Of a stretch of DNA of 64,000 bases, positions 32,141 through 61,906 are shown in pieces. Under the pieces are notes generated by a model. It was not told where the DNA came from. It saw nothing but the letters and a program-made list of their open reading frames with translations, and made no database searches. This DNA comes from Candidatus Kaiserbacteria bacterium RIFCSPHIGHO2_01_FULL_53_29 (GTDB lineage: Bacteria > Patescibacteriota > Minisyncoccia > Phycocordibacterales > UBA2100): NCBI GenBank assembly GCA_001781125.1, contig MFKT01000001.1:3630-67629 (forward strand), read 5' to 3'. Position 1 is the first letter of the stretch. Each line of letters opens with the position of its first letter. The translations under genes were made by a program, and so were the position numbers.

Positions 32141-34204
32141 CTAGCGATAGCGATAGTACGGGAGTTGTGGGTAGTTTGTTCCAAACAAGTAGTTTGAGAA
32201 AGCTCTACCAGCATTGAATCCGCCTAGGATTTGATTTGTCACGAAAGCATCGACGTTGCCTATGTTTGGTGGCAGACTGACACGGTTACCAATCAGTGAA
32301 TCCGGTACCCGGTTTGCGATGGGTACGGGGTCAAGAGTTGAAACTTCCCTGTAGTAGTCGTAGTTGGTGCGGTTTGGCTCTGCGGGTGTCTCTCCGAGCA
32401 GTGGAGAAGATGCCTGTATTCCCGAGGATCCGTCGGGATTTACGAACGTTGCTCTGGGGGCTTCCGCACGACCATCGAAAGAGGGAGGGAGTTGACCATT
32501 ACTATTGCCATTTGTGAAGTTAGAGCTCCCTGAATCGTTCGACTCCGGCGCAAGGCCAAATCCTGGTCTGTTACTAAACTCTTGCGGTGAGAAGTTTTGA
32601 GCGTCTGTTACGTAGCTAGGAAATTCATTGGGTCCGGTCGTCACATACGGATTCAGCGGCAAATTGTCACCCGCGTTCGCGTAGAATAAATCGTTCGGTT
32701 GACCCGACTGAGCGGGCGGCGCCCACGGGGCATCAAAGGGGCCGTAAGTCGAAACGTCACTGTTCGGCCCGAATGTATCAATTCCCGACACCTCCACATC
32801 CCTCCATGAGCTGAGAGTCGTTTGCATACACATGCCGCAACTATTCTCGAAACTACGTTCGGGTTGTGGGGACACTTGGTCAGGAGCAAGTAATTGATTT
32901 TGCGTTTCCGCTCCATCGCTTGAACCGGTCTTGTATATTGTATCGGGATTCTCGAGCATATCCCTACGCGGGTTAGGGCTCTCATTCGCTAGCTCTTGAT
33001 TTTGTGATTGAGCCTCCAAGGAACTTCGATCATTGGTCGGCAGGTCTTCGGTGGGGGGAGGGGTTGGAAGATCCGCCGCATTCTCATTGACCATCAGGAC
33101 TTCGGCTCGTTGGAGTTCATCCATCGATTGAAATTCGGTAGACTGGTCCAGCTGAATACTCTCTAGTCCGGATGTATCGGCTTGGTTGATGCCTAAGTAG
33201 TCCATTGCCCCTTCCCATGCGCTTGCAGTTGTGTCCCGAACTGCATTCCATGTACTTGCAGCAGCATCGCGGATCGAATCTACCCATCCCGACGTCTCTT
33301 GGTTTGACGAATCGAAGCCCCCCGTTTGCTCCTGTGAGAAAGTACTCCCGGAAGAAAACTGCTGCGTCATCGTGTATGCGCCGCTCCTCTTGAAGGCTTC
33401 TTCGGCATCACTTCCGCCGACACCACTACCACTCTGTTCAGCCATGAGGCGCTGGATATTCTCAGGGGCCACACCCTGGGTCGGTTGCGCGTTTTGCGGT
33501 ATCGACGCTTCGTCCTGATAATCCTCTCCTCCATATTCGTCGGCATCGCTTTCAATGTCACTGAATGATCCATTTTCAGGTAGCGGAGCTTTACTCTCCG
33601 AAGAGTCCTTCGCTTCCAAACGTGCGTCGAGTGGCTGGAGTTGGAGGTTGGCTGCACTCTGCTGCAAAGGCCCGGTATCATTCCCCCCTTTACCCGCAGC
33701 ACTCGGAATTTGCGGCGCTCCGGGAGATCCGCTACCTGCCTGTTGTGTACCACCCGGCTTGCTCCCCGGCGGTACGCATTTCCCGTCGAGCAGCTTTGTA
33801 CACTTATTGCTATGCTTCGGACCACCAACACAGCATCCCAAAATGCCGCTCTGACTGTATGCGGCTTCTGTGCATGACGATTCACAATCAGGATCTTTGG
33901 GACACTGCTCGATGCCTTTTGCCGTCTTCTCCCGGCACTTTGGTATTACGCAGTTCCGCCAATTTGTCTCGCACATATTCTTGTCTTTCTCGTTGGGATC
34001 AGTCATACATTTGTTATACGCCTGTTCGCATGCCCCGCCCGAAGTAGCTGCGGCGGCGGCGGCTTGCGCAAGAAACGCAGAGCGGTCGGGTGCAGTGCTG
34101 GTGAATTGTGTCAGACCGAAATTCGCGAGGCCGAGAATTGCCACCAATACGAGCAACGGATGAATAGCGATGTTGTCGCGCAAATTCGGACCCTCTCCAG
34201 GCAT
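32141..34204 (-). CDS. Large secreted/membrane-anchored low-complexity protein (Cys-rich N-terminal module, S/G/Q/N/P-rich remainder) inserted between infC and rpmI
   Basis: A 687-aa ORF. An N-terminal hydrophobic helix is followed by a roughly 120-aa region with about 17 Cys. The rest is polar low complexity ending in ...YPQLPYYRYR. Confidence 0.6.
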   Translation of the reverse strand: MPGEGPNLRDNIAIHPLLVLVAILGLANFGLTQFTSTAPDRSAFLAQAAAAAATSGGACEQAYNKCMTDPNEKDKNMCETNWRNCVIPKCREKTAKGIEQCPKDPDCESSCTEAAYSQSGILGCCVGGPKHSNKCTKLLDGKCVPPGSKPGGTQQAGSGSPGAPQIPSAAGKGGNDTGPLQQSAANLQLQPLDARLEAKDSSESKAPLPENGSFSDIESDADEYGGEDYQDEASIPQNAQPTQGVAPENIQRLMAEQSGSGVGGSDAEEAFKRSGAYTMTQQFSSGSTFSQEQTGGFDSSNQETSGWVDSIRDAAASTWNAVRDTTASAWEGAMDYLGINQADTSGLESIQLDQSTEFQSMDELQRAEVLMVNENAADLPTPPPTEDLPTNDRSSLEAQSQNQELANESPNPRRDMLENPDTIYKTGSSDGAETQNQLLAPDQVSPQPERSFENSCGMCMQTTLSSWRDVEVSGIDTFGPNSDVSTYGPFDAPWAPPAQSGQPNDLFYANAGDNLPLNPYVTTGPNEFPSYVTDAQNFSPQEFSNRPGFGLAPESNDSGSSNFTNGNSNGQLPPSFDGRAEAPRATFVNPDGSSGIQASSPLLGETPAEPNRTNYDYYREVSTLDPVPIANRVPDSLIGNRVSLPPNIGNVDAFVTNQILGGFNAGRAFSNYLFGTNYPQLPYYRYR

Positions 34205-35114: not shown

Positions 35115-36713
35115 TTAGAGCGCAAGCACTTGAGTCTGGGCACTTCCATACGGTCTCACAGATCTCAAGTAGTTGAGTGCGTACAGGAGAACGTTCTTGA
35201 ATATCTCAAGAATTTGTATTAGCGCCCCGTTTTGCTTCGTTGCATTGACCGGGACAGGGTTTCCGGCAAGGTCGGGAGATGTGAACGTCTGCTGCGAGAT
35301 CGGCGGCGCCATGATGATGGGACGGGCGGGTGGTGCGGAGGCGAGGGTATTGGGATTTTGTGCTGTCACGTCGGAGTTTCCCGCAGTATCTACGGAGCTC
35401 GAAACATCAGTCCCCGTTACGGCTTGCAGCTCCACAGAATTCAAGAGGTCGTTGTTGAGGGAGAGGGGCGTTGTTGTCGTCATGATCGGCTGATTGACCG
35501 GATCCATCTGATTTTCGAACTGCCGGATGAGGTCGAAGGCGGAGAGGCTGCTCGTCGCTGTCCTTGACCCATCGTTACTATTCAGATTGAGCGCGAGCGG
35601 TTCTCCGGTGGTCGTTGAGGTCGCGGTAAGAAGATTGAGGAGCGAATTCTGCGAAGAATTTGCCGGTGTCAGTAAATTTGCAATTGACGATTGAGTCCCC
35701 AATGCCTCCGAGGAAATGCTGGATTGCGCAGGAAGTATCGGTTGCGCAGAGGATTGAGGCTGTTGCGGAAGCTGCTGCTGCATCTGTGGTTGCTGCATTT
35801 GAGGTGGGGGCAGTGGCGGTGGAGGAGGTGGGGGTGGCTGCATACCAAGTGCTTGGCGAATTTGATCGGCAAGTCCGGAGGAGGGCGATCCGCGCTCTGG
35901 AGCAGGGAGAAAACCATTTCCGCTCCCGCCACTGTTGCATGCGCCGCATTGTCCATGCCTGCCCTCCGCATTTTGGAAATGACCCGGGTCCCATCCATTG
36001 ACGCCGGTAATGGTACGGAGTCCAGATCTGCCAGCGTTGGCGTGCATCCATGGCAACAGTGCCTTGTTTGCGTTGAAGTCGGCCGCGAGTCCGTAATTAT
36101 GGTACGACTGGCAAGGGCCTGCTTTTGAGGCCCTGCTGGCGACGAGACCGTTTTGTTTCTCGGGGCCTCTATATGCGTCCGTGATTTTTGGCGGGCCGCC
36201 AGGAACTGCTTCCATGAATTTTTTCAACTTTTCCGCGAATTGTGTGTTGAGGCACGAGATATTCGCGTCTTTAGTCGCATGCTGTCGCAGCCAGAGTTTT
36301 GCTTCTCCGGCAGCTTGGCCGGTATTCGGATCTTTCGTATTCCACGGCATGCCGACTTGCGGATCCGGTATGCCAGCTGACTCCATTTTCGGTATATCGG
36401 CCGCTGTCGCGGGTCGTGTACCGACTGGAGTGCTGCCAGAGGTTTCTGGGGGTTCCGGTGACAGTAGTGTTGGGATAGTGGATAGGCTATCTTTCCAGCC
36501 ACTACAGAGCTGGTGTTTTGTTCCGGGGGGCGGTGCGACGTTGTACATCACGATGGGTCCCCACCCTTTGTTGAGGAGGTCGTTGTACTCTGCGCTCTCC
36601 CACACGACATCTTTACACTCCGCTCTGACATACAGCGGAACCGTAACCACTAGGACTGCGACGATAAGAAAAAACACGAACACTCCAGTGTCGTTCAGGT
36701 CAGTTCGAAACAT
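35115..36713 (-). CDS. Membrane-anchored peptidase M15-family (VanY/endolysin-like zinc D-Ala-D-Ala / L-Ala-D-Glu peptidase) domain protein with a Pro/Gln-rich linker and a conserved C-terminal domain; paralog 1
   Basis: N-terminal TM (VFVFFLIVAVLVVTVPLY). Motifs ITDAYRGPEKQ...SYHNYGLAADFN...DPGHFQ fit the M15 zinc-ligand pattern (S.[FY]R..Q / S.H..G.A.D / H). The PPPPPPPPLPPPQMQQPQMQQQ linker is followed by a C-terminal roughly 170 aa about 70% identical to the neighbour. The start is taken at the ATG; the listed ORF starts at an upstream GTG. Confidence 0.6.
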   Translation of the reverse strand: MFRTDLNDTGVFVFFLIVAVLVVTVPLYVRAECKDVVWESAEYNDLLNKGWGPIVMYNVAPPPGTKHQLCSGWKDSLSTIPTLLSPEPPETSGSTPVGTRPATAADIPKMESAGIPDPQVGMPWNTKDPNTGQAAGEAKLWLRQHATKDANISCLNTQFAEKLKKFMEAVPGGPPKITDAYRGPEKQNGLVASRASKAGPCQSYHNYGLAADFNANKALLPWMHANAGRSGLRTITGVNGWDPGHFQNAEGRHGQCGACNSGGSGNGFLPAPERGSPSSGLADQIRQALGMQPPPPPPPPLPPPQMQQPQMQQQLPQQPQSSAQPILPAQSSISSEALGTQSSIANLLTPANSSQNSLLNLLTATSTTTGEPLALNLNSNDGSRTATSSLSAFDLIRQFENQMDPVNQPIMTTTTPLSLNNDLLNSVELQAVTGTDVSSSVDTAGNSDVTAQNPNTLASAPPARPIIMAPPISQQTFTSPDLAGNPVPVNATKQNGALIQILEIFKNVLLYALNYLRSVRPYGSAQTQVLAL

Positions 36714-36771
36714 ACAGAGAAGTATACAGAGAAAATCACTGCTCACTTCCGGCGACTGTACAAGTACTCAC

Positions 36772-38421
36772 TTATATTTGCACGGCTGCACGGCTTCCGA
36801 ACGGTTTCAAATACTCAAGCGCGAGGAGCAGCGTATCCCTGAAGATCGTAAGAATTCTTATGAGCACCGCATCGTTTTGCTTCGCTGCTGGTATATTGGC
36901 AGACACAGGAGCATTGCCAAGGTCGGGAGATGTGAACGTCTGCTGCTGCGAGATCGATGGCGCCATGATAATGGGACGTGTTGCTGGCGTCGCCGTCGCA
37001 TAGACGATGCGACCACTGATATTTTCGGGCGCTGTTGCATCCGAAGAAGGCCCAATGTCAATTGGAATATAAACATCAGTCCCCGTTGCCGCATTTAGTG
37101 CACGGGGGAAAGCAGCTTGCAGCTCCACAGAATTCAAGAGGTCGTTGTTGAGGGAGAGAGGGGTTGTTGTTGTCATGATCGGCTGATTGACCGGATCCAT
37201 CTGATTTTCGAGTTGCCGGATGAGGTAGAAGGCGGAGAGGCTACCCGTCGCTGCCCCCGACCCATCGTTACTATTCAGATTGAGCGCGATCGGTTCTCCG
37301 GTGGTCGTTGAGGTCGCGGTCAGAAGATCGAGAATTGAATTCTGCCCAGCTGAAATTGGTGAATTTGGTATCGTCAGGAGACTTGCGGGTGATGATTGAA
37401 TCGGTAGATTCGAAGAGACCGTCGGCTGTGTAGAAAGAGTTGGTTGAGCCTGAAGCGTTGGTTGAGTGGAGAGCGCCGGTTGTATCGACGACTGAGGCTG
37501 TTGGGGAAACTGCTGCTGTGGCGGCATCTGCGGTTGCTGCATTTGAGGTGGTGGCGATGGCTGCTGAGGCGCGGGCGGTTGCGGCGGGAGTTGAGGTTGT
37601 TGTCCCTGTCCGTTAGTTAGGCACTGCGATTGCTGGACCGTCCCGGGTGGCGCGATGACGGGAGGATTGAGACTCGTGAAGCACTCCGCGGTGTTCATGG
37701 CTGATGAACCCTGCGCCCAATCCCGTATCCCGCTCGTTATTCCGGAAGTAGGTGTGGTTTGAGATGTTTGAGGAGGTGGGGTGTTGGCTGGGGTACCCGC
37801 AACCCCACTGCATGACGGGCTGCGCATGTTCGTTGGTTGCATGTGCGGCCTGTCGCCCATGCCGAGCGGAAAGCCGACGCCAAATTGCGGACTCGCTCTC
37901 GCGAACGCATGCAGTTGCGCATAGTTGCCGCTTGCCGGATTCACGTCCATAGCCATTCCTATTTGGTGGTTGGAATTCGTCGCTCCTCTGGCCCTCGCAT
38001 TCTCCGTGCGGTCGCATTGGATGCTTGCAGGCGAGCGCGGCCCGCATCGGAAGGCCGACACGACAAAGATAGGCCCGTATTTCTGTGCGTATGCTTTGAG
38101 AAAATTAGCCGCGCACGTTGCAAACGCGTTGTTTAGCTTGTCGATACGACCTCCTGAGGTCGGTGGAGCTTTTGAATTCCGCAGGTCTCTCGCTATGCTC
38201 TGTAAATATGCTTTCGCTGCTCCGGCGTCGTTGGTGATTCCCGCTTTGGTATCACCGGGACAAACGGGTCTTCCCGGTAGAGCACCTGCGCGGACTTCAC
38301 CTGGAGTAGCCGTATGACCCGCCGAGCCATCAGCACAAGGACCTGCCGATTCCGTGAAAAGCGGGCCGAGGATCACTAGTGCAAAAGGGACGGCCAATAG
38401 GGCAGATACCTTGAGAGACAT
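36772..38421 (-). CDS. Secreted peptidase M15-family domain protein with a Pro/Gln-rich linker and a conserved C-terminal domain; paralog 2
   Basis: Signal peptide MSLKVSALLAVPFALVILGPLFTESA. Motifs VVSAFRCGPRSPASIQ...SNHQIGMAMDVN...DRPHMQ fit the M15 pattern. The linker is PQPPAPQQPSPPPQMQQPQMPPQQQ. The C-terminal domain (TTTGEPIALNLNSNDGS...NQPIMTTTTPLSLNNDLLNSVELQA) is shared with 35115..36713. A shared upstream motif CTGTATACTTC sits just before both start codons. Confidence 0.6.
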   Translation of the reverse strand: MSLKVSALLAVPFALVILGPLFTESAGPCADGSAGHTATPGEVRAGALPGRPVCPGDTKAGITNDAGAAKAYLQSIARDLRNSKAPPTSGGRIDKLNNAFATCAANFLKAYAQKYGPIFVVSAFRCGPRSPASIQCDRTENARARGATNSNHQIGMAMDVNPASGNYAQLHAFARASPQFGVGFPLGMGDRPHMQPTNMRSPSCSGVAGTPANTPPPQTSQTTPTSGITSGIRDWAQGSSAMNTAECFTSLNPPVIAPPGTVQQSQCLTNGQGQQPQLPPQPPAPQQPSPPPQMQQPQMPPQQQFPQQPQSSIQPALSTQPTLQAQPTLSTQPTVSSNLPIQSSPASLLTIPNSPISAGQNSILDLLTATSTTTGEPIALNLNSNDGSGAATGSLSAFYLIRQLENQMDPVNQPIMTTTTPLSLNNDLLNSVELQAAFPRALNAATGTDVYIPIDIGPSSDATAPENISGRIVYATATPATRPIIMAPSISQQQTFTSPDLGNAPVSANIPAAKQNDAVLIRILTIFRDTLLLALEYLKPFGSRAAVQI

Positions 38422-38459
38422 TCTCGAAGTATACAGAAGAAAAACTCCAGCCCCTTTTC

Positions 38460-39050
38460 CTATGTGGACTGTTTTGTCGTATTGCCCAGGCACACTCCGT
38501 CGGCCCAGAGACCTCGTTTAGCCGCTTGCGCTTCCTGTTCTGCTGCTTTGAATTCGGCTTGGTATTTGTACGGAAGGCGATAGGTGTATTCGTGGCCGAA
38601 GCCATTCTCGATCATGAATTTCTCGTAGTTTGTTCCATTGAGCAGAAAGACATAGGCGAGCGTACGGCCGTACTTATCATATGTATCTTGCGAAGCGTCA
38701 TATTCGAGTCGCACATACTGGCTGTCGAGAAGTTTGTGCCCCTCATCGGAAGCTTCGCGCGCAAAACATTGTACGGGTTTGCGCGGGTCGACAATCTCCG
38801 GCGTGTCGAGTCCGATAATGCGGATGCGGGTCAGTGCGGCGTCCATCACGACGTCGATCGTATCGCCGTCGATGACCTTGGCAACGGGGTAAACATCGGG
38901 CGTTGTGGTTGCAGGCTGTATCGTTGCAGCCGCAAGCGCGCTTTGCGCCGCTTTATGATTCGCAATCGGCGCAAGGGCGGTGCGGCCTGCAAGAATGGCG
39001 AGTGTAGCAAAAATCACCGCGGCTCCGTACAAAAGTGAACGCACATTCAT
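38460..39050 (-). CDS. Secreted thermonuclease (staphylococcal nuclease/SNase-like)
   Basis: Signal peptide, then VIDGDTIDV...RIRIIGLDTPE...YGRTLAYVFLLNGTNYEKFMIENGFGHEYTY...AKRGLWAD matches the SNase fold signature. Confidence 0.8.
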   Translation of the reverse strand: MNVRSLLYGAAVIFATLAILAGRTALAPIANHKAAQSALAAATIQPATTTPDVYPVAKVIDGDTIDVVMDAALTRIRIIGLDTPEIVDPRKPVQCFAREASDEGHKLLDSQYVRLEYDASQDTYDKYGRTLAYVFLLNGTNYEKFMIENGFGHEYTYRLPYKYQAEFKAAEQEAQAAKRGLWADGVCLGNTTKQST

Positions 39051-43932: not shown

Positions 43933-44474
43933 AAACAAAACAAAGCCAGAAAAACTCTGTCCTGTCGATCTTTATAGAACCTTTATTCCGTAATGCTGCG
44001 CAAAACAGAATATGGAAGAACGTGAATAACATGTACTTATGTGGAGATGGCGAGAATTGCACTCGCGTCCAGAGAAGAGAATATGAACGATTCTACACAA
44101 CGTAGATTATTCTGAATTTTCGTCGCGGTGCATCAAGAACAATCAAAAGTGCATCGCGCTTACCTCTCTTTCTTGAAAGCAGTGCGCGGAGTGACGCAGA
44201 GCTCGAGTCAATTGATTATGGCGTTCGAATCAGAGCAAATGACAACTGCTGATTGAACGGTCGTTCGAGCTGTTTAGGCAAAAACGAGGCCGAGGTCTTT
44301 CGCCTGAATCGGAGAAAGAACCCCCCGTGCTACTTTGTTCGCACTTGAGTTTTGAGGCAGTTTAAAAAGATGCCACAACTTTGTTGCGCACAGACATATT
44401 CCTATTTCCCTGTCGAAACTGATCATCCCCCACCCACGATTCTACGAGAGAATCATGGGTGGGGAAGGACAAGG

Positions 44475-50080: not shown

Positions 50081-50233
50081 GGGACATGAATGAGCCTGTT
50101 CGAGTTGTCATAACCGGAGGGACCGGCGTATACGTTGCCATGAATGGAAAGGTATTCCTCTGGAACAATGTCAGGAAGAATAGAGATAAGCAAGTGTTTG
50201 AAAACTTGCAAAAGACGGTAGAGTAGTACTGTT

Positions 50234-50304
50234 GCGCCCATAGCTCAATGGTAGAGCGACCGTCTTATACACGGTCTACCTAGGTTCGATTCCTAGTGGG
50301 CGTA
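50234..50304 (+). tRNA. tRNA, apparent anticodon UAU (Ile, AUA-reading) by manual cloverleaf folding; CCA not encoded
   Basis: GCGCCCA-TA-GCTC-AATGGTA-GAGC-G-ACCGT-CTTATAC-ACGGT-CTAC-CTAGG-TTCGATT-CCTAG-TGGGCGT-A. There is a G1·U72 wobble. A TTGAAA..TAGAGT promoter-like sequence lies upstream. Confidence 0.7.
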
Positions 50305-50358
50305 TAAGTGAACTTTGCTGTGAATTGCGAGGTTGCACCCTCGGCTCGCCGTGCGACA

Positions 50359-52701
50359 ATGAGTGGCATGCGATACGTTGTTCGGATTCCTGCGCTAGCT
50401 GCATGTCTAGCCGCTTTTCTCTTTCTCTTCCTCCCTCATGCAAGCTTTGCGGCGACTGTCACGGTAACGATGGGGGCAAATTCTTTCTCGCCCAAAAATA
50501 TCACGGTCAATTCCGGCGACACGGTCACGTGGGTCAACAGCAGCAGCATGGCGCACACTGCAACGGCCGACAACGGCAGCTTCGATAGCGGAACGGTGGC
50601 TGCGGGACAGAGCTACGGAGCGATATTCAATGCACCCGGCATCTACGCGTATTATTGCAAACTCCACGGTAGCCCCGGTGGGATAAGTATGGCAGGTACT
50701 ATTACGGTTGTCGCGGGCGCAACCCCGACGAGCGGAGCTGTCGGGGCCCCACCCAGTGCGTCGGGGCTGCAGGCGCAAGCACAGGCACTCCTCAATCAAA
50801 TTGCGGCACTCAAGCAACAGCTGGGATATGGTGGCACTTCGGGAACCGCGATCACGACGACTTCAGGGAGCGGCATCTCCACGTATTCGGCCGCGTGTCC
50901 GCTCATCGGGAGGAATCTCTCACAGGGCGCGAGCGGTGACGATGTGTCGCGTCTCCAGCAATTTCTCGCGCAGGACACTGCGGTCTATCCGGAGGCGATC
51001 GTGTCGGGATATTATGGAAGTTTGACTCAGACGGCAGTGCAGCGATGGCAGGCGAAGTACAATATCGTCTCGTCAGGTACGCCAAGCTCGACCGGCTACG
51101 GTGTCGTCGGTCCGCGCACGGCGGCAGCGATCGCTATCATTTGTGCCGGCGGCAGCATCAATGGCATCTCCGCAACGGCAGTGAGCCCGCCTCCTGCATC
51201 TGTCAGCGGTGTTGTCAGCGTGACACCGATCGTGGGGGACGCACCCCTTACGGTCAATGTTACCGCGACACTCAATACGGCCGGCTCATGCGCCGGCGGC
51301 CTTTACACACTCGATTTTGGCGATGGCGCTCCTGTGCAGCAAATTACTGTTCCGGCTGGTAATTGTGGACAATTGAGTCAGACCTATCCGCATACGTTCC
51401 GATACGGTGGCAGTTACTCCATCACTCTTTCGGCAGGAGTGCACCGTCAATCCGCGACAGTCACCGTCACCGGTCCTGCAGCGCCTCCGCCGCGGAAAAC
51501 AACGCCCGGTCTGCCGAAAGAATCTTTCAAGGTCTCTCCTACCTCGGGTACAACACCGCTTACCGTTACGTTCTCGGGCGTCGTCAACAGCAACGATGCG
51601 GGATTCTGTAACGGCGGTTGTGCCTCTGTTCTCGACTTTGGCGATGGCACGTCCGGGACGGTCGATCTTCCCGCCTCTGTCGGGGGATGGCTTGAGTACA
51701 GCATCACGCATACCTATACGACGGCGGGGGGATTCAAGACGACTCTGTATCAGGGCGGTGCGGGCGTCTCACAGCCGAAGGTCGGGTCGGCAACGATCGT
51801 TGTCTCGGTCGGCACCCCGTCGTTTTCTGCGATACCCGCATCCGGTCCCTCGCCACTTGCTGTCGGCTTTTCTGCGACTGGTCTTTCTCCAAGCGGCCTC
51901 TACGGGATCAATTATGCCGATGGAACGGCCATTGCGCGCTTCACGGGAAGCGCCGCTCCCGGCACGCAAAGCCCGTGGACGCATACCTACTCGACTCCTG
52001 GCACATTCTCGGCCCAACTTCTCTCGTATCAGGCGTCCACGAGTGGCTGCCAAGGCAGTTGTGCCTCGACCCCGACGGTCATAGGCACGGTACCGGTCAA
52101 TGTTTCCGGCACCCCCGCCGGCTCTGCCGCGCTCTCGGTATATCCGACCTCCGGCGTGGCGCCAGTCAACGTTTCATTCACGGCGAATATCAGCCCGACA
52201 AGCGGCACGCACAGCATTAATTTTGGCGATGGCTCTCCGGCGCAAACCTTCGGCTGCGCGACCGGCTCAACGTGTGCCACGCACTGGCAGATCAATCACA
52301 CGTACGCGACGGGCGGCACATTTGTGGCGCGGCTCAGCACGGGATCGGGCTCTCAAGTCGGGGCGGCCACGGTTACCGTTTCCGGCGGTTCGACGAATCC
52401 GACGAATCCCACAAATCCTCCAAATTCTTATCCGTACAATCCGCCCCTGCTCTCCGGTGGCAGTGACTCGCTTTCATTCAATGTGCAGTTTGACCTGCCA
52501 TCCTCGTGCACGGGCTACGATCTCTCTTGGGGCGATGGCACGTCTCATGTCGTGCAGAGTGACGGAGGCTCCTCGTGTGCGCAGAGTATTGCTACTCCAT
52601 CTCTTTCTCACACGTATAGTTCCGAGGGCTCATACACCATCGTTTTGAAACGTGGACCGACGCTTTCCCAGATCAACGACATCGAAATAACCACTCAATA
52701 A
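50359..52701 (+). CDS. Secreted multidomain protein: cupredoxin (blue-copper) domain, a peptidoglycan-binding (PG_binding_1-like) domain and about 5 PKD-like (FGDG) domains
   Basis: Signal peptide. Cupredoxin ligands HTATADNG...YYCKLHGSPGGISMAG. The PG-binding motif is GASGDDVSRLQQFLAQ...YYGSLTQTAVQRWQAKYNI. Repeated ...LDFGDGxxx.../INYADGT/SINFGDGS/DLSWGDGTS units are present. The listed ORF begins at an upstream GTG. Confidence 0.7.
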   Translation: MSGMRYVVRIPALAACLAAFLFLFLPHASFAATVTVTMGANSFSPKNITVNSGDTVTWVNSSSMAHTATADNGSFDSGTVAAGQSYGAIFNAPGIYAYYCKLHGSPGGISMAGTITVVAGATPTSGAVGAPPSASGLQAQAQALLNQIAALKQQLGYGGTSGTAITTTSGSGISTYSAACPLIGRNLSQGASGDDVSRLQQFLAQDTAVYPEAIVSGYYGSLTQTAVQRWQAKYNIVSSGTPSSTGYGVVGPRTAAAIAIICAGGSINGISATAVSPPPASVSGVVSVTPIVGDAPLTVNVTATLNTAGSCAGGLYTLDFGDGAPVQQITVPAGNCGQLSQTYPHTFRYGGSYSITLSAGVHRQSATVTVTGPAAPPPRKTTPGLPKESFKVSPTSGTTPLTVTFSGVVNSNDAGFCNGGCASVLDFGDGTSGTVDLPASVGGWLEYSITHTYTTAGGFKTTLYQGGAGVSQPKVGSATIVVSVGTPSFSAIPASGPSPLAVGFSATGLSPSGLYGINYADGTAIARFTGSAAPGTQSPWTHTYSTPGTFSAQLLSYQASTSGCQGSCASTPTVIGTVPVNVSGTPAGSAALSVYPTSGVAPVNVSFTANISPTSGTHSINFGDGSPAQTFGCATGSTCATHWQINHTYATGGTFVARLSTGSGSQVGAATVTVSGGSTNPTNPTNPPNSYPYNPPLLSGGSDSLSFNVQFDLPSSCTGYDLSWGDGTSHVVQSDGGSSCAQSIATPSLSHTYSSEGSYTIVLKRGPTLSQINDIEITTQ

Positions 52702-52723
52702 CGAGTATCAAATTTAGGCCCCG

Positions 52724-52869
52724 ATGATATGCCCGGTAGGACAATTTCGAATCGCCTTGATATGAATATTTACCAGCGTATGACGAGAAAAATTGATTCG
52801 AGAATTTTGCAGCCATTCGTCGTTGATACCGCGGCAAGAATTATTCGAAATTGTACTGACCGGGTATGA
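52724..52869 (+). repeat. Copy D of the roughly 140-bp cassette, outside the ribosomal cluster, upstream of a secreted PG-binding protein gene
   Basis: gaTATG|CCCGGTAGG...CTGACCGGG|TATGa. The 35-aa uORF MNIYQRMTRKIDSRILQPFVVDTAARIIRNCTDRV has an ATGA overlap with the downstream ATG. Paired substitutions (C to T in the 5' arm, G to A in the 3' arm) keep the closing helix intact. A 1-nt insertion fuses uORF1 and uORF2 in frame. Confidence 0.8.
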
Positions 52870-53717
52870 GAAAAATACGGTTCGCAGGAATTGCAACGCT
52901 GCTCGCAGGTATTTGTGCGACGCCATTCTTTGCGGCAGCTTTGAGCGGCGACGATATCAAGGCGCAGATTGCGGCAATCCTTGCTCAGATCGCTGCGACC
53001 CAGGGGAAAGCGCAGTCCGTACCATCTGTCCAGTCCGTCCAATCTCTTCCCCCCGTGCAGCCGCTTTCCCCGAACCAATCGCAGGGAGGGGCGTGTCCGG
53101 TACTTTCCCGCTCGCTCTCGCTTGGTGCACAGGGCCTGGATGTGCTCTCGCTCCAGCAATTCCTCATCGCGCAGAATTCCGCGAGTACCGGATCGGCGAC
53201 CGGCTACTTCAACGCGCAGACCGAAGTTGCCGTACAAAAATGGCAATCATCGCACGGGCTCGTCTCCTCCGGTGACGCGGGATCGACCGGATGGGGAGTG
53301 GTGGGTCCGCGCACAAGAATGCTCATTTCTCTCAATTGTAACCTTCCAACGTCATCTCCGGCGTCGGCTGTCACCGGAAGCCGGTGCCCGAGTGCGCTCC
53401 CGCCTGTGATGCTCTGCTCGACTACTTGGAAGCCGGTCTTGGACGTATACGGTTGTACCACTTCCTACCAATGCTCGGTCCCGCTTTCAGGCGCCACGTC
53501 ACAGAAATCGGTGCAATCAACGACGACAACACCGGCAACAGGCTCGGTCATATCGATCGGTATCCTCTCAAGCAGCTATTGTGTAACTCCGTGGGGCAAC
53601 ATTACGCGGGTTAACGGACAAAGTATCAGCTATATCCCGTATTTCACGAACGGACTAAATAACGGGGGACGCAATCCAAGTGTTTTATGCGACAAAGGCG
53701 TTTGGACGGTGCAGTGA
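52866..53717 (+). CDS. Secreted protein with a PG_binding_1-like domain and a Cys-containing C-terminal domain
   Basis: Signal peptide. LSLGAQGLDVLSLQQFLIAQ...GYFNAQTEVAVQKWQSSHGL is a peptidoglycan-binding-type motif. Confidence 0.65.
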   Translation: MRKIRFAGIATLLAGICATPFFAAALSGDDIKAQIAAILAQIAATQGKAQSVPSVQSVQSLPPVQPLSPNQSQGGACPVLSRSLSLGAQGLDVLSLQQFLIAQNSASTGSATGYFNAQTEVAVQKWQSSHGLVSSGDAGSTGWGVVGPRTRMLISLNCNLPTSSPASAVTGSRCPSALPPVMLCSTTWKPVLDVYGCTTSYQCSVPLSGATSQKSVQSTTTTPATGSVISIGILSSSYCVTPWGNITRVNGQSISYIPYFTNGLNNGGRNPSVLCDKGVWTVQ

Positions 53718-53720
53718 TGT

Positions 53721-54710
53721 ATGCGCTCAAACCGTTGTGTTGCTCTCATCACAGCTGCCGCATTGTTCTTTCCGCTTGCCGCAAGCGCTCTCACGGATGC
53801 TGGTTCATGTCCGAATATCGCTTACGCTCTCTCACGCGGTTCGCGCGGCACTGACGTTGTTCAATTGCAGCAGTTTCTCATCGCGCAGGGTTCTCTTCAG
53901 GCTGGATTAGCGACCGGATATTTCGGCGCTCTTACCGAAGCGAGTGTAAAATCCTGGCAATCACAAAATGGGGTAGATTCTATCGGCATTGTTGGACCAA
54001 AAACCCGCGCGGCGATAGCAAGAGCGTGCGGCACAGATCCCATAGACTTTCAGGCCTCAAGACAATCCGGGACGGTACCAACTTCGTTGCAATTCTCGTG
54101 GAAGTTAGGCTCGAATAAGCAATCGTACTACGGTGTCGATTTTGGCGACGGCACTTCCTGTTCTGGCTATGATTGTGTTTTCGGCTACGTTGTTCACTTC
54201 TCGGCGGATTACACGCCAGAGAGTCTGGAGTTCCAGCTTCACGGCAGAGGTCAAGCCAACCATCAATATACGTCTCCAGGTACCTACACAGCTCGGCTAA
54301 TCGGAACGGGGAATGCGACACTTGCTAGCCAAACCACGATATTCTTCGCGGGTCAGCAAGGTCAGCCGGCTGTAGGCATGTGGGTTTCTCCGACATCCGG
54401 ACATGTTCCGTTGGTTACTTCGATCGGATGGCAAGGGTATGGTAGAGAGAGTGTCGAAAACTACAGCGTTGATTATGGTGACGGTTCGCACAGTACAAAC
54501 GCAACTATGAAGTGTCGGGTTGCTTCGGCTGCTGCACATACTATCTTTTCTTACATCTTGCAGCTGATGATCCCGGTTGCTTCTGCGAATACAGCTGTCG
54601 CACCAAATTGCTCGGCTAATCACACCTATACCACGCCGGGCACTTACACTGTTCGCCTACTTTCGCCAGACGGGTCTCTCGCAGGTTCAGTAGTGGTCAC
54701 CGCCAAGTAA
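53721..54710 (+). CDS. Secreted protein with a PG_binding_1-like domain and two PKD-like domains
   Basis: Signal peptide. LSRGSRGTDVVQLQQFLIAQ...GYFGALTEASVKSWQSQNGV is followed by GVDFGDGTSCSG and SVDYGDGSHST units. Confidence 0.65.
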   Translation: MRSNRCVALITAAALFFPLAASALTDAGSCPNIAYALSRGSRGTDVVQLQQFLIAQGSLQAGLATGYFGALTEASVKSWQSQNGVDSIGIVGPKTRAAIARACGTDPIDFQASRQSGTVPTSLQFSWKLGSNKQSYYGVDFGDGTSCSGYDCVFGYVVHFSADYTPESLEFQLHGRGQANHQYTSPGTYTARLIGTGNATLASQTTIFFAGQQGQPAVGMWVSPTSGHVPLVTSIGWQGYGRESVENYSVDYGDGSHSTNATMKCRVASAAAHTIFSYILQLMIPVASANTAVAPNCSANHTYTTPGTYTVRLLSPDGSLAGSVVVTAK

Positions 54711-54770
54711 TTATTCTGCGATGATTTCTTGCGTCCCGTCGCGTGCGCCACGGGATGCTACCATGGGGCG

Positions 54771-55031
54771 ATGAAGATTGAGTTTACCAATCATGCACAA
54801 CGAAGAATGCGTGAACGGAATTTGAGTCGCAGGCAACTTGAAAGATTCGTCAGCAAACCCGACAGCGTTGAAGTTTCAAGCAAGAACTCGTTGAGATTTT
54901 TACTCAAGAAACGGTATCGTCACCGCACATCCGGGAAGGACCACTTGCTTATGGCGATTTGCGAGCGCCATGGTGACGTACTTGTTGTGGTGACTATCGT
55001 TGACACTTCACAGATCAGGAAATACAGTTAG
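54771..55031 (+). CDS. DUF4258-family protein (putative toxin/RNase-like)
   Basis: MKIEFTNHAQRRMRERNLSRRQLERFV... is typical of the DUF4258 N-terminus. Confidence 0.55.
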   Translation: MKIEFTNHAQRRMRERNLSRRQLERFVSKPDSVEVSSKNSLRFLLKKRYRHRTSGKDHLLMAICERHGDVLVVVTIVDTSQIRKYS

Positions 55032-60898: not shown

Positions 60899-61906
60899 TT
60901 AGTTGATCTCGATGTCGATGTGGCGCACCGCGGGGAAGCGCTTGCGCAGCATTGCCTCGATCTCGTCTATTTTCTTGCCCATCAAGCGCGGGATGCGGTC
61001 GGCATAATCCACACAAAAACGCTTGAACGCCTCGTAATCGTCTTTGATCTCCTCGTATCGCTCTTGCAGATATTTATTCTGATATGCACCCTTGAGAAGG
61101 GCGTTGCCGTTGAATTCGACTTCACACTTGATGCGGTATACACCGATGCCGAGCACGCTTGATTTGAAATCGATGACGCGCTCTATCGCGGGCTCTGCCA
61201 CGAGTGCGGCGATTATTTCCTCCCGCTCGTCTTCCGGAATTGAGCGGCCAAGGAGATAGGAGTGGTTTTTGCGGATGAGAACGATGGCGATGGTCGCAAG
61301 CAAAAGACCCACGACTACAGAGCCGAGGGCGTCCCACAGGGTATTGCCCGTGTAATACGACGCAGCAATACTTAGTGCCGCAACGCCAATGCCGATGAGC
61401 GCGACGCCATCTTCGAGATACACGGCGAGGGTCGACGGATCGGCAAGCGCGAGCCGTTCTCGCCACGATGCATCCGGGTACGACCGTTTGAGTCCGCGTG
61501 CGGCTATCCAGAATGTCAGCAATTCGATGACGAAGGATGCACCCAAGACGACGAACAGAAGCCCGTGGATTTCGATCGGATGGGGATTGAGGAGCGAGGA
61601 GACGCCCTTATAGAGCGAGATACCTGCACCGAGGAAAAATATCCCGCACGCCGAGAGGAGTGCCCAGAAGAAACGCTCTTGGCCGTATCCGTAGTCAAAG
61701 TCGTCGTCGGCTTTCTTGAACGAACGGCCGACACCGATGAGGAGAAAAAGTTGATTGAGCGTATCGGCAAGGCTGTGCACCGCTTCGGAAAACATCACAC
61801 TTGAGCCCGATGTGGCTGCGGCGCCCGCCTTGATGATCGTAACCAAAAGATTCCCGACGAACGCCGCCGCGACGGGAATGAGCCCCACTGTCCGCCTCTC
61901 TGCCAT
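60899..61906 (-). CDS. Cation diffusion facilitator (CDF) family divalent metal efflux transporter
   Basis: TM region with HSLADTLNQ... and D/H metal-site motifs, plus a C-terminal cytoplasmic CDF domain. A 335-aa length is typical. Confidence 0.85.
   Translation of the reverse strand: MAERRTVGLIPVAAAFVGNLLVTIIKAGAAATSGSSVMFSEAVHSLADTLNQLFLLIGVGRSFKKADDDFDYGYGQERFFWALLSACGIFFLGAGISLYKGVSSLLNPHPIEIHGLLFVVLGASFVIELLTFWIAARGLKRSYPDASWRERLALADPSTLAVYLEDGVALIGIGVAALSIAASYYTGNTLWDALGSVVVGLLLATIAIVLIRKNHSYLLGRSIPEDEREEIIAALVAEPAIERVIDFKSSVLGIGVYRIKCEVEFNGNALLKGAYQNKYLQERYEEIKDDYEAFKRFCVDYADRIPRLMGKKIDEIEAMLRKRFPAVRHIDIEIN

What the first reader, a model, noticed from the sequence alone, without database searches (positions are those of the whole stretch)
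50359..54710. Three consecutive secreted peptidoglycan-binding proteins; the first combines a blue-copper (cupredoxin) domain with PKD repeats
The 50359-52701 product has a plastocyanin/amicyanin-like ligand set (H...C..H....M in HTATADNG / YYCKLHGSPGGISMAG). It continues with a PG_binding_1-type helical domain and about five FGDG/PKD-like beta domains. The next two genes again begin with a signal peptide plus the same PG-binding domain type. Tethering a redox-active copper domain to the cell wall is uncommon. It could mediate extracellular electron transfer or oxidative chemistry at the envelope.
Basis: partly seen in the sequence, partly recalled or inferred. Interest (0 to 1): 0.6.

Follow-up and report, generated by a model that had tools for sequence, protein, structure and literature searches.

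The report
Wall-tethered blue-copper protein in Kaiserbacteria
An ultra-small groundwater bacterium (Candidatus Kaiserbacteria) encodes three adjacent secreted cell-wall-binding proteins, and the first carries an intact plastocyanin-like copper domain; this design is conserved across the lineage, yet the published trait tables for this genome list no enzyme that could use the electrons.

Summary
Three co-oriented ORFs (50359/50368-52701, 52866-53717, 53721-54710) each encode a signal peptide followed by a Cys-flanked PG_binding_1 domain.

The first protein also has:
- an N-terminal cupredoxin domain (Pfam Copper-bind, 38 bits; AF2 pLDDT about 97; best PDB matches are plastocyanin, amicyanin and the cupredoxin tails of NirK-like enzymes);
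- a complete type-1 ligand set (H66, C100, H103, M111);
- five PKD-like domains.

The window comes from Candidatus Kaiserbacteria RIFCSPHIGHO2_01_FULL_53_29 (CPR/Patescibacteria). The architecture is not a one-off. The same RecG-adjacent locus holds a PGB-PKD protein in 80 of 80 related species genomes. 32 of these loci carry the copper head, and about 70% of the heads keep an intact His-Cys-His core. Ligands or the whole head were lost many times.

No NirK, oxidase, cytochrome or copper chaperone lies in the window or within 10 kb in 87 related loci. Published trait tables list this 95%-complete genome as fermentation only, with no NO2->NO and no O2 metabolism.

Best reading: a one-electron copper carrier held at the wall of a cell thought to lack an outer membrane, with an unknown partner. 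I rate it a new variant of a known kind, of moderate interest.

The parts
50333..50360 (+). Promoter-like element: TTGCAC (-35-like, 50333-50338), a 16-nt spacer containing TG (50352-50353), then GACAAT (-10, 50355-50360). It lies 7 nt before the ATG at 50368, which implies a leaderless or near-leaderless mRNA.
   Evidence: Sequence read. The same TTGCG...TGCGA[CG]AAT-N6-7-ATG layout appears upstream of at least 14 orthologues. The generic scan missed it because the -35 is weak. Function is inferred, not shown.
50359..52701 (+). Gene 1: signal peptide, cupredoxin, tether with helix, PG_binding_1 and five PKD-like domains. 780 aa from ATG 50359; 777 aa from the likelier start at 50368.
   Evidence: ORF; Pfam. 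[quoted passage not shown]'. Gene callers on metagenome contigs use the 780-aa form.
50359..50451 (+). Signal peptide (residues 1-31), with cleavage predicted after SFA.
   Evidence: Sequence. The motif LPH(T/A)SFAA|Q is conserved at the same position in homologues. No signal-peptide predictor was available, so this was read by eye.
50452..50718 (+). Type-1 copper (cupredoxin) domain, residues 32-120. Ligand codons: H66 at 50554-50556, C100 at 50656-50658, H103 at 50665-50667, M111 at 50689-50691.
   Evidence: PF00127 at 38 bits. AF2 pLDDT 93-98. Foldseek probability 1.00 to 9CCK, 5FC9, plastocyanins and amicyanins, with rmsd 1.6-1.9 A over 90 residues for amicyanin. phmmer E = 2e-15 to 9CCK and 1e-10 to 1BXU, with all ligands aligned.
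50758..50826 (+). Conserved amphipathic helix (residues 134-156, LQAQAQALLNQIAALKQQL) with a heptad pattern. Low-complexity linkers flank it (121-133 and 157-179). Together they form a tether of about 60 residues between the copper domain and the PGB domain.
   Evidence: AF2 helix at model residues 103-125 with pLDDT 63-72; linkers below 50. The helix is conserved family-wide, including in members without the cupredoxin. Coiled-coil oligomerisation is inferred only.
50896..51144 (+). PG_binding_1 domain of protein 1, bracketed by C180 and C262 (a probable disulfide).
   Evidence: PF01471 at 24.8 bits. AF2 three-helix bundle, pLDDT about 95. Both Cys are invariant in the 70-sequence alignment. 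The nearest solved relative is the N-terminal domain of 1LBU (E = 1.8e-4), followed by weaker matches (E 0.15-0.31) to SleB PG-binding domains.
51205..52698 (+). Five diverged PKD-like beta domains: 51205-51474, 51520-51810, 51814-52107, 52126-52383 and 52441-52698.
   Evidence: Whole-protein PKD score 55.4 bits. Each segment alone hits PF00801. Motif positions.
52866..53717 (+). Gene 2 (283 aa): signal peptide, helix 28-49, Cys-bracketed PG_binding_1 (C77-C158; 53094-53339), a 4-Cys mini-module (about residues 173-204; 53382-53477) and a second Cys module (about 239-281).
   Evidence: Pfam. AF2: PGB pLDDT 92-96, 4-Cys hairpin 75-91, C-terminus below 50. The modules recur in other CPR PGB proteins. 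The C-terminal 128 aa have no Pfam hit.
53721..54710 (+). Gene 3 (329 aa): signal peptide, Cys-bracketed PG_binding_1 (C30-C103; 53808-54029) and two PKD-like domains. It starts 3 nt after the stop of gene 2.
   Evidence: Pfam: PG_binding_1 46 bits, PKD_4 41.2, PKD 30.8. Its PGB domain is 47% identical to that of protein 2, and it aligns with the PGB and PKD regions of protein 1. The exact protein occurs on 22 metagenome contigs.

Best explanation
The locus encodes three secreted surface proteins. Each is built on one shared anchor module: a signal peptide, usually an amphipathic helix, and a Cys-bracketed (probably disulfide-clamped) PG_binding_1 domain. The module probably holds the proteins non-covalently on the peptidoglycan of a cell that, as CPR bacteria are thought to, lacks an outer membrane.

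Protein 1 adds two things. One is a stalk of five PKD-like domains. The other, on a flexible tether of about 60 residues at its N-terminus, is a genuine type-1 (blue) copper domain of the plastocyanin/amicyanin kind.

The most likely mechanism runs as follows:
1. Sec export and signal-peptide cleavage.
2. The PGB domain docks on the wall.
3. The copper centre (His66, Cys100, His103, Met111) cycles between Cu(II) and Cu(I).
4. It passes single electrons between a donor at the membrane and an acceptor in the wall zone.
In short, it would be a soluble-type electron carrier kept from diffusing away by a wall tether.

In relatives that have NirK, the acceptor is plausibly that enzyme, as the literature proposes for CPR 'plastocyanins'. 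In this genome no NirK or oxidase has been reported, so the partner is unknown.

Shown here: domain identities, the ligand set, family conservation and locus conservation. Inferred: copper binding, wall binding, electron transfer, and the partner.
For: Cupredoxin identity:
- Pfam above cut-off.
- AF2 pLDDT about 97.
- Foldseek top hits are all cupredoxins.
- All four ligands align with plastocyanin.

Selection on the site:
- Of 83 family domains, 57 keep the His-Cys-His core.
- The axial position is Met in 47 and Gln in 8. Gln is the known alternative axial ligand of stellacyanin.
- Two loop lengths occur (C-x2-H-x7-M and C-x2-H-x2-M), and both keep the ligands.
- Species-level counts are similar: 23 of 33 intact.

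Closest solved relatives are cupredoxin domains tethered to NirK-type enzymes: 9CCK (38% identity, E = 2e-15) and 6HBE.

Anchor module:
- The PGB domain is the most conserved part of the protein, with two invariant flanking Cys.
- pLDDT about 95.
- Related to the PG-binding domain of 1LBU and, more weakly, to those of SleB.
- No C-terminal TM segment or LPXTG motif is visible at the end of the sequence.
- The same anchor carries other passengers in CPR, including PKD, cohesin and M23 peptidase domains.

Locus: it has its own conserved promoter-like element and sits in a conserved position next to RecG in 68 of 80 species loci.

Literature: two papers propose CPR cupredoxins as NirK electron donors in the same order, o__UBA9983_A (PMC5581439; PMC12931201). 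One Rifle Kaiserbacteria genome with an intact copy (LOWO2_01_FULL_54_13) is scored NO2->NO positive.
Against: No partner was found:
- No NirK, multicopper oxidase, c-type cytochrome or copper-chaperone motif in the window.
- No NirK within 10 kb in 87 related loci, 1.29 Mb in all, using a validated NirK query.
- No gene family is enriched beside intact copies.

The source genome (95.3% complete) is listed with fermentation as its only positive trait in SD9. NO2->NO, N cycling and O2 metabolism are all 0. Two other Rifle genomes with intact copies are also NirK-negative.

About 30% of domains have lost Cys and His2, and many orthologues lack the head entirely. These forms are interleaved on the tree. 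The protein core therefore works without copper.

Copper binding, peptidoglycan binding and the predicted Cu-site geometry could not be measured. Model coordinates are not exposed by the tools.
Confidence: 0.5

Rival explanations
1. The trio are wall-anchored adhesion or surface-architecture proteins, for example for holding an episymbiont to its host or building a surface layer. On this view the cupredoxin head is one more beta-sandwich module. Its metal site, where kept, stabilises the fold or binds a metal, but it carries no electrons.
For: The PGB-PKD core is present in 80 of 80 related species loci. The head is present in only 32 of those loci, and its His-Cys-His core is intact in only 23 of 33 heads. 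Ligands and head were lost repeatedly and independently. Genes 2 and 3, and the many tandem paralogues elsewhere, have no redox domain. No partner gene was found. The genome is listed as fermentative only.
Against: In about 70% of heads all three equatorial ligands are kept, and the axial position is confined to Met or Gln across two loop lengths. That is hard to explain without selection on copper chemistry. The domain is 38% identical to a NirK-linked cupredoxin domain.
Confidence: 0.22
2. It is the dedicated electron donor to a copper nitrite reductase (NirK). The nirK gene was simply missed in this metagenome-assembled genome.
For: This role is proposed for CPR cupredoxins in PMC5581439 and PMC12931201. 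The closest solved relatives are NirK-tethered cupredoxins. Several Rifle Kaiserbacteria are NO2->NO or N-cycling positive, including 54_13, which has an intact copy. The genome is about 95% complete, so roughly 5% is missing.
Against: The trait tables give NO2->NO = 0 and N cycling = 0 for this genome. The same holds for two of the three other Rifle genomes with intact copies. No NirK is adjacent in any of 87 loci. The screen did detect NirK in other CPR genomes, so the method is not blind to it.
Confidence: 0.13
3. The domain handles metals rather than shuttling electrons. It could work in copper buffering or resistance (like CopI) or oxidise Fe(II) for uptake (like the cupredoxins of FtrB and EfeO) at the cell wall of an aquifer organism.
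For: Foldseek lists EfeO (7WGU) and FtrB (8VUK) among its hits. There is a weak partial hit to NCBIfam CopI (E = 0.01). A cation-efflux (CDF) gene lies about 6 kb downstream, at 60899-61906.
Against: The CopI score of 15.6 is far below its cut-off of 280 and covers only 33 residues. FtrB shares only 18% identity. No Ftr1/EfeU permease or other metal-uptake gene was listed among the neighbours. From general knowledge, a single buried type-1 site is a poor metal buffer, and a classic His/Cys/His/Met set is typical of electron carriers.
Confidence: 0.08

Closest known systems
Plastocyanin and amicyanin (small soluble type-1 copper electron carriers; Pfam PF00127)
   Same: Same fold and the same His/Cys/His/Met ligand set in the same order. 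Pfam score above the cut-off. Foldseek probability 1.00, with rmsd 1.6-1.9 A to amicyanin. Part of the family has the amicyanin loop C-x2-H-x2-M.
   Different: It is not a free periplasmic or lumenal protein. It is the N-terminal head of a 780-aa wall-anchored multidomain protein. The loop in this copy is C-x2-H-x7-M, longer than in the classical proteins. Scores fall far below the NCBIfam equivalog cut-offs for plastocyanin, amicyanin, pseudoazurin and halocyanin. No photosystem, cytochrome f or methylamine dehydrogenase context is present.
Cupredoxin domains fused to NirK-type enzymes (Nitrosopumilus maritimus 9CCK; Thermus scotoductus NirK 6HBE)
   Same: These are the best solved sequence and structure matches (38% identity, E = 2e-15). 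In both cases the carrier is tethered rather than free.
   Different: Here the tether leads to a peptidoglycan-binding domain and a PKD stalk, not to the enzyme. No NirK is reported in this genome.
Predicted 'plastocyanin (pcy)' or cupredoxin electron donors of Patescibacteria NirK (Danczak 2017, PMC5581439; Adv Sci 2025, PMC12931201)
   Same: Same superphylum and, for C7867-001, the same GTDB order o__UBA9983_A. Same annotation as a single cupredoxin domain protein. Same proposed role as an extracytoplasmic electron carrier in organisms without complex III.
   Different: Those papers mention neither a PG-binding nor a PKD fusion. I could not tell whether their proteins belong to this family. 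Their hypothesis needs NirK, which this genome is not reported to have.
Membrane-anchored cupredoxins of organisms without a closed periplasm (halocyanin, sulfocyanin, auracyanin); comparison from general knowledge
   Same: The same logic applies: a small copper carrier has to be fixed to the envelope so that it is not lost.
   Different: Those proteins are held by a lipid or a transmembrane anchor. This one is held by a non-covalent peptidoglycan-binding domain. NCBIfam halocyanin scores 31.2 against a cut-off of 93.8.
PG_binding_1 wall-targeting domains of cell-wall enzymes (Streptomyces Zn D-Ala-D-Ala carboxypeptidase 1LBU; SleB)
   Same: Three-helix PG_binding_1 domain. The best solved sequence match is 1LBU residues 8-66; matches to SleB PG-binding domains are weaker.
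   Different: No catalytic domain is attached in any of the three proteins. The domain is bracketed by two invariant cysteines and usually preceded by a conserved Gln/Ala-rich helix.
Tandem multi-cupredoxin proteins of Chloroflexi (Aggregatilineales) and Actinomycetota
   Same: These are the nearest non-CPR relatives of the copper domain (40-53% identity per repeat). They are also large proteins labelled in public records only as cupredoxin domain-containing or plastocyanin.
   Different: They carry 2-12 cupredoxin repeats. The two whose Pfam domains were listed (P0071, P0092) have no PG_binding_1 or PKD core.

Membership tests
Type-1 copper proteins, plastocyanin/azurin family (Pfam PF00127 Copper-bind) | Sequence match above the Pfam gathering score | tested here: met
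   38.0 bits against a cut-off of 21.2, residues 34-117, profile positions 5-98 of 99.
Type-1 copper proteins, plastocyanin/azurin family (Pfam PF00127 Copper-bind) | Greek-key beta-sandwich cupredoxin fold | tested here: met
   AF2 model with pLDDT 93-98 and an all-beta domain. The Foldseek top 50 are all cupredoxins or cupredoxin-domain proteins, probability 1.00, TM (target-normalised) 0.66-0.82 for single-domain targets. This is a prediction, not a solved structure.
Type-1 copper proteins, plastocyanin/azurin family (Pfam PF00127 Copper-bind) | Ligand set: an upstream His, then Cys, His and Met (or Gln) in the C-terminal loop | tested here: met
   H66, C100, H103 and M111 align with the ligands of plastocyanin 1BXU. 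The same columns read HCHM or HCHQ in 55 of 83 family members.
Type-1 copper proteins, plastocyanin/azurin family (Pfam PF00127 Copper-bind) | Trigonal Cu-site geometry in three dimensions | not testable with these tools
   Model coordinates are not exposed. Support is indirect only: high pLDDT and low rmsd to amicyanin.
Type-1 copper proteins, plastocyanin/azurin family (Pfam PF00127 Copper-bind) | Binds copper, with blue (about 600 nm) absorption, small A-parallel EPR and a reversible Cu(II)/Cu(I) couple | not testable with these tools
   Needs purified protein.
Named subfamilies: plastocyanin (TIGR02656), amicyanin (TIGR02657), pseudoazurin (TIGR02375), halocyanin (TIGR03102) | Score above the NCBIfam curated cut-off | tested here: not met
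   Scores of 39.9 vs 87.85, 28.7 vs 110.2, 17.3 vs 109.85 and 31.2 vs 93.8. It is a cupredoxin, but not a member of any of these named subfamilies.
PG_binding_1 (Pfam PF01471) | Sequence match above the gathering score in all three proteins | tested here: met
   24.8, 33.6 and 46.0 bits against a cut-off of 23. Protein 1 only just passes, but its domain is the most conserved block of the family alignment.
PG_binding_1 (Pfam PF01471) | Three-helix bundle fold | tested here: met
   AF2 helices 163-173, 190-202 and 221-231 (model numbering), pLDDT about 95, in protein 1. Helices 91-102, 117-129 and 148-158, pLDDT 92-96, in protein 2.
PG_binding_1 (Pfam PF01471) | Binds peptidoglycan | not testable with these tools
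   Needs a pull-down with purified sacculi. Whether the target is the cell's own wall or a host's is also open.
PKD domain (Pfam PF00801 / PF18911) | Sequence match above the gathering score, with a repeated beta-sandwich | tested here: met
   Protein 1: 55.4 and 53 bits. Protein 3: 30.8 and 41.2 bits. All five segments of protein 1 hit PF00801 individually, two of them at or above the cut-off. The fold of the PKD region was not modelled.
Electron donor to copper nitrite reductase (role of pseudoazurin, azurin or CPR 'pcy') | A NirK gene in the same genome | tested here: not met
   No NirK in the window or within 10 kb in 87 related loci (query validated). The published trait tables give NO2->NO = 0 and N cycling = 0 for RIFCSPHIGHO2_01_FULL_53_29. 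Caveats: the genome is 95.3% complete and the screen was HMM-based.
Electron donor to copper nitrite reductase (role of pseudoazurin, azurin or CPR 'pcy') | Co-occurrence of intact copies with NirK across genomes | tested here: inconclusive
   Only four Rifle genomes have both data types. One is NirK-positive (54_13) and three are negative (54_20, 54_11b, 53_29).
CopI-type copper-resistance cupredoxin (NF051440) | Score above the curated cut-off | tested here: not met
   15.6 bits against a cut-off of 280, with only residues 27-59 matched.

The most novel reading that the evidence does not exclude
Kaiserbacteria, which are listed as purely fermentative and lack any reported respiratory enzyme, display a functional blue-copper centre on their wall in order to exchange electrons with something outside the cell. 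The counterpart could be a host cell's surface redox proteins or a dissolved or mineral substrate. That would be an extracytoplasmic redox interface in a CPR episymbiont, working independently of NirK. A side possibility is that the recurrent His-Asp-Tyr-Met variants are a natural non-thiolate metal site in a cupredoxin scaffold.
Probability: 0.1. Interest if true: 0.8.

Novelty: new variant of a known kind. Interest (0 to 1): 0.42.

Why it matters
CPR/Patescibacteria are generally described as fermenters without electron-transport chains. Even so, a large Kaiserbacteria-centred family keeps an apparently functional type-1 copper site on a cell-wall protein, and it does so in at least some genomes where no NirK or oxidase is reported.

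If the domain is redox-active, two things follow. First, a peptidoglycan tether would be a way, not described in the papers searched, to retain a soluble-type electron carrier in a cell without an outer membrane. Second, there would have to be an unidentified extracytoplasmic redox partner, which bears on how these episymbionts interact with hosts and with nitrogen or metal cycling in aquifers.

The family also offers a natural experiment. Intact, Gln-axial, Cys-to-Asp and head-less forms all sit at the same locus, which makes comparative tests straightforward. If the head proves inert, the finding reduces to a lineage-specific surface-protein family, which is ordinary.

Tried and rejected
- Partner search in the window. 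tblastn with a NirK sequence, plus motif scans for type-1 loops, HCH, CxxCH, MxCxxC and CPC/CPH. Only gene 1 itself matched in a plausible gene.
- Neighbour annotation of the whole window through precomputed Pfam. It showed ribosomal operon, SecY, FtsH, malic enzyme, RecG and similar genes, with nothing redox- or copper-related.
- NirK within 10 kb in 87 related loci: none.
- Gene-family enrichment beside intact, degenerate and head-less copies: only housekeeping synteny.
- Exact look-up of P0001: not on record. Protein 3 was used instead.
- Representative-library search with the copper domain alone. I hoped to see NirK fusions. The top 150 were swamped by tandem multi-cupredoxin proteins whose repeat scores add up, so it said nothing about partners.
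- afdb50 fold search: library unavailable.
- Generic promoter and terminator scan: at or below chance level and missed the conserved element. A manual comparison of orthologous upstream regions found it.
- AF2 of protein 2: the C-terminal module is below pLDDT 50, so no fold search was attempted.
- Lipoprotein reading of protein 1 (LAAC at residues 13-16): rejected. The Cys is not conserved, and a long hydrophobic stretch plus a conserved A-x-A cleavage site follow it.
- GTG start at 50308: rejected because it abuts tRNA-Ile at 50233-50305.
- A direct genome-wide NirK co-occurrence test could not be run. I could not obtain a CPR NirK sequence to use as a query, and whole genomes are not retrievable with these tools. 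Published trait tables were used instead.
- The third homologous-protein search was left unused because no query would have answered the partner question.

Full report
**What is there**

The region holds three co-oriented ORFs on the + strand: 50308/50359-52701, 52866-53717 and 53721-54710. A tRNA-Ile(TAT) ends at 50305, so the GTG at 50308 is not a credible start.

Pfam gives the following:
- Protein 1: Copper-bind (38.0 bits, cut-off 21.2), Cupredoxin_1, PG_binding_1 (24.8 vs 23), PKD (55.4) and PKD_4 (53).
- Protein 2: PG_binding_1 only (33.6).
- Protein 3: PG_binding_1 (46.0) plus PKD and PKD_4.

The layout of protein 1 is:
- signal peptide, residues 1-31;
- cupredoxin, 32-120, with H66, C100, H103 and M111;
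- a Thr/Ser/Pro linker;
- a helix, 134-156;
- a Gly/Ser/Thr linker;
- PG_binding_1, bracketed by C180 and C262;
- five PKD-like segments, each of which hits PF00801 when scanned alone.

Proteins 2 and 3 share the same Cys-bracketed PGB domain (47% identity to each other). Protein 3 also aligns with the PKD region of protein 1.

**Is the copper domain real?**

An AF2 model of residues 32-271, built on a 70-sequence alignment, gives pLDDT 93-98 for the cupredoxin and about 95 for the PGB domain. The linkers are disordered.

Foldseek against the PDB returns only cupredoxins at the top:
- the C-terminal cupredoxin of a Nitrosopumilus NirK-like multicopper oxidase (9CCK, 38% identity);
- the Nitrosopumilus purple cupredoxin 5FC9;
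- cyanobacterial plastocyanins;
- amicyanins (rmsd 1.6-1.9 A over 90 residues);
- the cupredoxin tail of Thermus NirK (6HBE).

phmmer against PDB sequences agrees (9CCK E = 2e-15; plastocyanin 1BXU E = 1e-10). The printed alignment places H66, C100, H103 and M111 on the plastocyanin ligands.

The loop is C-x2-H-x7-M, longer than in the classical proteins. Scores fall well below the NCBIfam cut-offs for plastocyanin, amicyanin, pseudoazurin and halocyanin. It is thus a cupredoxin of the plastocyanin/azurin family but belongs to no named subfamily. The Cu-site geometry itself could not be measured, because model coordinates are not exposed.

**Whose genome, and how common is the design?**

[quoted passage not shown]. 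The only matching name in the source paper's tables is ..._53_29: 1.11 Mb, 53.5% GC, 95.3% complete.

More than 80 protein clusters share the Cu-PGB-PKD architecture. They are typically 550-610 aa with fewer PKD repeats. Some public records name them 'plastocyanin/azurin family copper-binding protein' or 'cupredoxin domain-containing protein'.

A scan of 185,579 species-representative genomes found 137 relatives. The best 80 loci are all from Patescibacteria (Kaiserbacteria, Paceibacterota, Parcubacteria and similar labels).

All 80 sit in the same chromosomal position: SmpB, FtsH, dihydroorotase-like, malic enzyme, then 1-4 tandem PGB genes, then RecG on the other strand, then a holin-like gene. 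RecG is present in 68 of 80 loci, malic enzyme in 48 and FtsH in 47. When the copper head is present, it is as a rule on the first gene of the array.

**The copper site is kept by selection in most, but is dispensable**

Among 83 head-bearing proteins the four ligand columns read:
- HCHM in 47;
- HCHQ in 8 (Gln is the known alternative axial ligand);
- HCHH or HCHF in 2;
- 26 have lost Cys (mostly to Asp, some to Ser) and/or the second His (to Tyr, Asn, Thr and others).

Two loop lengths occur, x7 and the amicyanin-like x2. Among species representatives, 23 of 33 heads keep the His-Cys-His core.

On a neighbour-joining tree built only from the PGB and first PKD region, intact, degenerate and head-less proteins are interleaved. 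Ligands and heads were therefore lost, or possibly gained, many times. Head-less forms occupy the same locus.

So the PGB-PKD core is the constant. The copper head is an accessory module that is under selection in many lineages, this one included.

**The anchor module is general**

Homologues of protein 2 show the same signal peptide, Gln/Ala-rich helix and Cys-bracketed PGB domain. In other CPR proteins this module is fused to PKD repeats, cohesin, M23 peptidase and unknown Cys-rich modules. The two flanking Cys are invariant in the protein-1 family.

The nearest solved relative of the PGB domain is the N-terminal domain of Streptomyces Zn D-Ala-D-Ala carboxypeptidase (1LBU), followed by weaker matches to SleB PG-binding domains. 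No LPXTG motif or C-terminal TM segment is visible at the end of protein 1.

From general knowledge, CPR bacteria make peptidoglycan and are thought to lack an outer membrane. A secreted soluble carrier would then be lost unless it is tethered.

**Search for a partner**

- The window has no NirK, multicopper oxidase, c-type cytochrome or copper-chaperone signature. Precomputed annotation of the window shows ribosomal, SecY, FtsH, malic enzyme, RecG and other housekeeping genes.
- A validated NirK query finds nothing within 10 kb in 87 related loci covering 1.29 Mb.
- No gene family is enriched beside intact copies.
- Two papers propose a single-domain cupredoxin as the electron donor to NirK in Parcubacteria, including GTDB order o__UBA9983_A. 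Neither mentions a PGB or PKD fusion (PMC5581439; PMC12931201).
- The trait tables of the paper that released this genome list it as positive only for fermentation. NO2->NO, N cycling and O2 metabolism are all 0 (Supplementary Data 9 and 10 of PMC5079060). SD10 also flags N fixation = 1, which SD9 contradicts.
- Four Rifle Kaiserbacteria have both an intact copy and trait data. One (LOWO2_01_FULL_54_13) is NO2->NO positive and three are negative.

The NirK-donor role is therefore plausible for some relatives but is not supported for this genome. The caveats are the 95% completeness of the genome and the HMM threshold used in that study.

**Most likely mechanism**

I commit to a wall-retained one-electron carrier:
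1. Sec export.
2. Non-covalent docking of the PGB domain on peptidoglycan.
3. A type-1 copper head on a flexible tether of about 60 residues, cycling between Cu(II) and Cu(I) and passing electrons between a membrane-side donor and an acceptor in the wall zone.
4. PKD repeats forming a stalk or adhesive array.

Proteins 2 and 3 are paralogous wall proteins without the redox head. The heptad pattern of the conserved helix hints at oligomerisation, but this is inference only.

Confidence is about 0.5. Fold, ligands and conservation are shown. Copper binding, wall binding, electron transfer and the partner are not.

The rivals are:
- a non-redox surface or adhesion protein with a vestigial or merely structural head (0.22);
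- a NirK donor whose nirK gene was missed (0.13);
- a role in metal handling (0.08).

**Novelty and verdict**

Each domain is well known. The proteins are already in public databases under generic names, and CPR cupredoxins have been discussed as NirK donors. What I did not find described is:
- the fusion of a type-1 copper domain to a peptidoglycan anchor and a PKD stalk;
- its conservation at one locus across a CPR lineage;
- its repeated decay.

This is a new variant of a known kind, of moderate interest. Its main value is that it makes one question testable: what does a blue-copper centre do on the wall of an organism listed as purely fermentative?

Noticed in passing
window 50321-50370; also L001, L008-L010, L020, L022, L027, L033, L037, L040, L041, L052 upstream of the orthologous gene: A conserved promoter-like element lies upstream of gene 1: TTGC(A/G)-type -35, a spacer of about 16 nt, then an extended -10 TGCGA[CG]AAT, followed by 6-7 nt and the ATG. 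This implies a leaderless or near-leaderless transcript starting at 50368. It also explains the odd 'PCDN..M' N-terminal extensions in mis-called homologues.
   Followed up: partly
family members P0022, P0035, P0043, P0069, P0084, P0088, P0095, P0111, P0113 and others; loci L025, L029, L038: About 30% of the family's cupredoxin heads replace the copper Cys with Asp (or Ser) and the second His with Tyr, Asn or Thr, while keeping the first His and the Met. The pattern is a recurrent His-Asp-Tyr-Met set that arose several times. It could be plain decay or an alternative, non-thiolate metal site.
   Followed up: partly
window 53382-53477 and about 53580-53714 (protein 2, residues about 173-204 and 239-281): Two small Cys-containing modules have no Pfam match. 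The first is CPxxxPPxxxCxxxWxxxxDxxGCxxxxxC, directly after the PGB domain (AF2 beta-hairpin, pLDDT 75-91). It is repeated up to three times in other CPR proteins and is the only passenger in many 164-192-aa proteins. The second is CVTPWG...PYF...C..G.W, which also occurs in P0129, P0138, P0126 and P0130.
   Followed up: partly
window 54729-55031 and the next small ORF up to about 55260: A DUF4258 / DUF2283 gene pair (toxin-antitoxin-like) is inserted between gene 3 and RecG. The other Kaiserbacteria loci examined do not have it.
   Followed up: no
L008-L087 (genome-contig loci): The number of tandem PGB genes at this locus varies from 1 to 4 between species. Head-bearing and head-less proteins can be near neighbours on a tree of the shared core (for example P0014 with P0036, and P0009 with P0033), which suggests recent domain loss or exchange between tandem paralogues. 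One genome (UBA10103; L020 and L024) has two intact copies on separate contigs, and L035 has two in tandem.
   Followed up: partly
window 32141-34204, 35115-36746 and 36772-38493 (- strand): Three large adjacent ORFs (about 690, 530-540 and 550-570 aa) have no Pfam hit, or only a faint one (Peptidase_M15_3). They may be further envelope proteins.
   Followed up: no
window 44039-44430 (-) and 50233-50305 (+): A tmRNA gene (Rfam, 86.7 bits) lies next to SmpB, and a tRNA-Ile with anticodon TAT lies immediately upstream of gene 1.
   Followed up: no
PMC5079060 Supplementary Data 9 versus Data 10, row RIFCSPHIGHO2_01_FULL_53_29: The published trait tables disagree for this genome. 'N fixation' is 1 in SD10 but 0 in SD9. 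This is probably a marker false positive, but it is a reminder that these tables are screening-level evidence.
   Followed up: no
P0211-P0359 (representative-library hits): This cupredoxin subtype is very abundant: 28,822 representatives at E <= 1e-3. It often occurs as 2-12 tandem copies in proteins of up to 3,670 aa, from Actinomycetota, Aggregatilineales and unnamed metagenome sources. Those proteins are labelled only as cupredoxin domain-containing or plastocyanin.
   Followed up: partly
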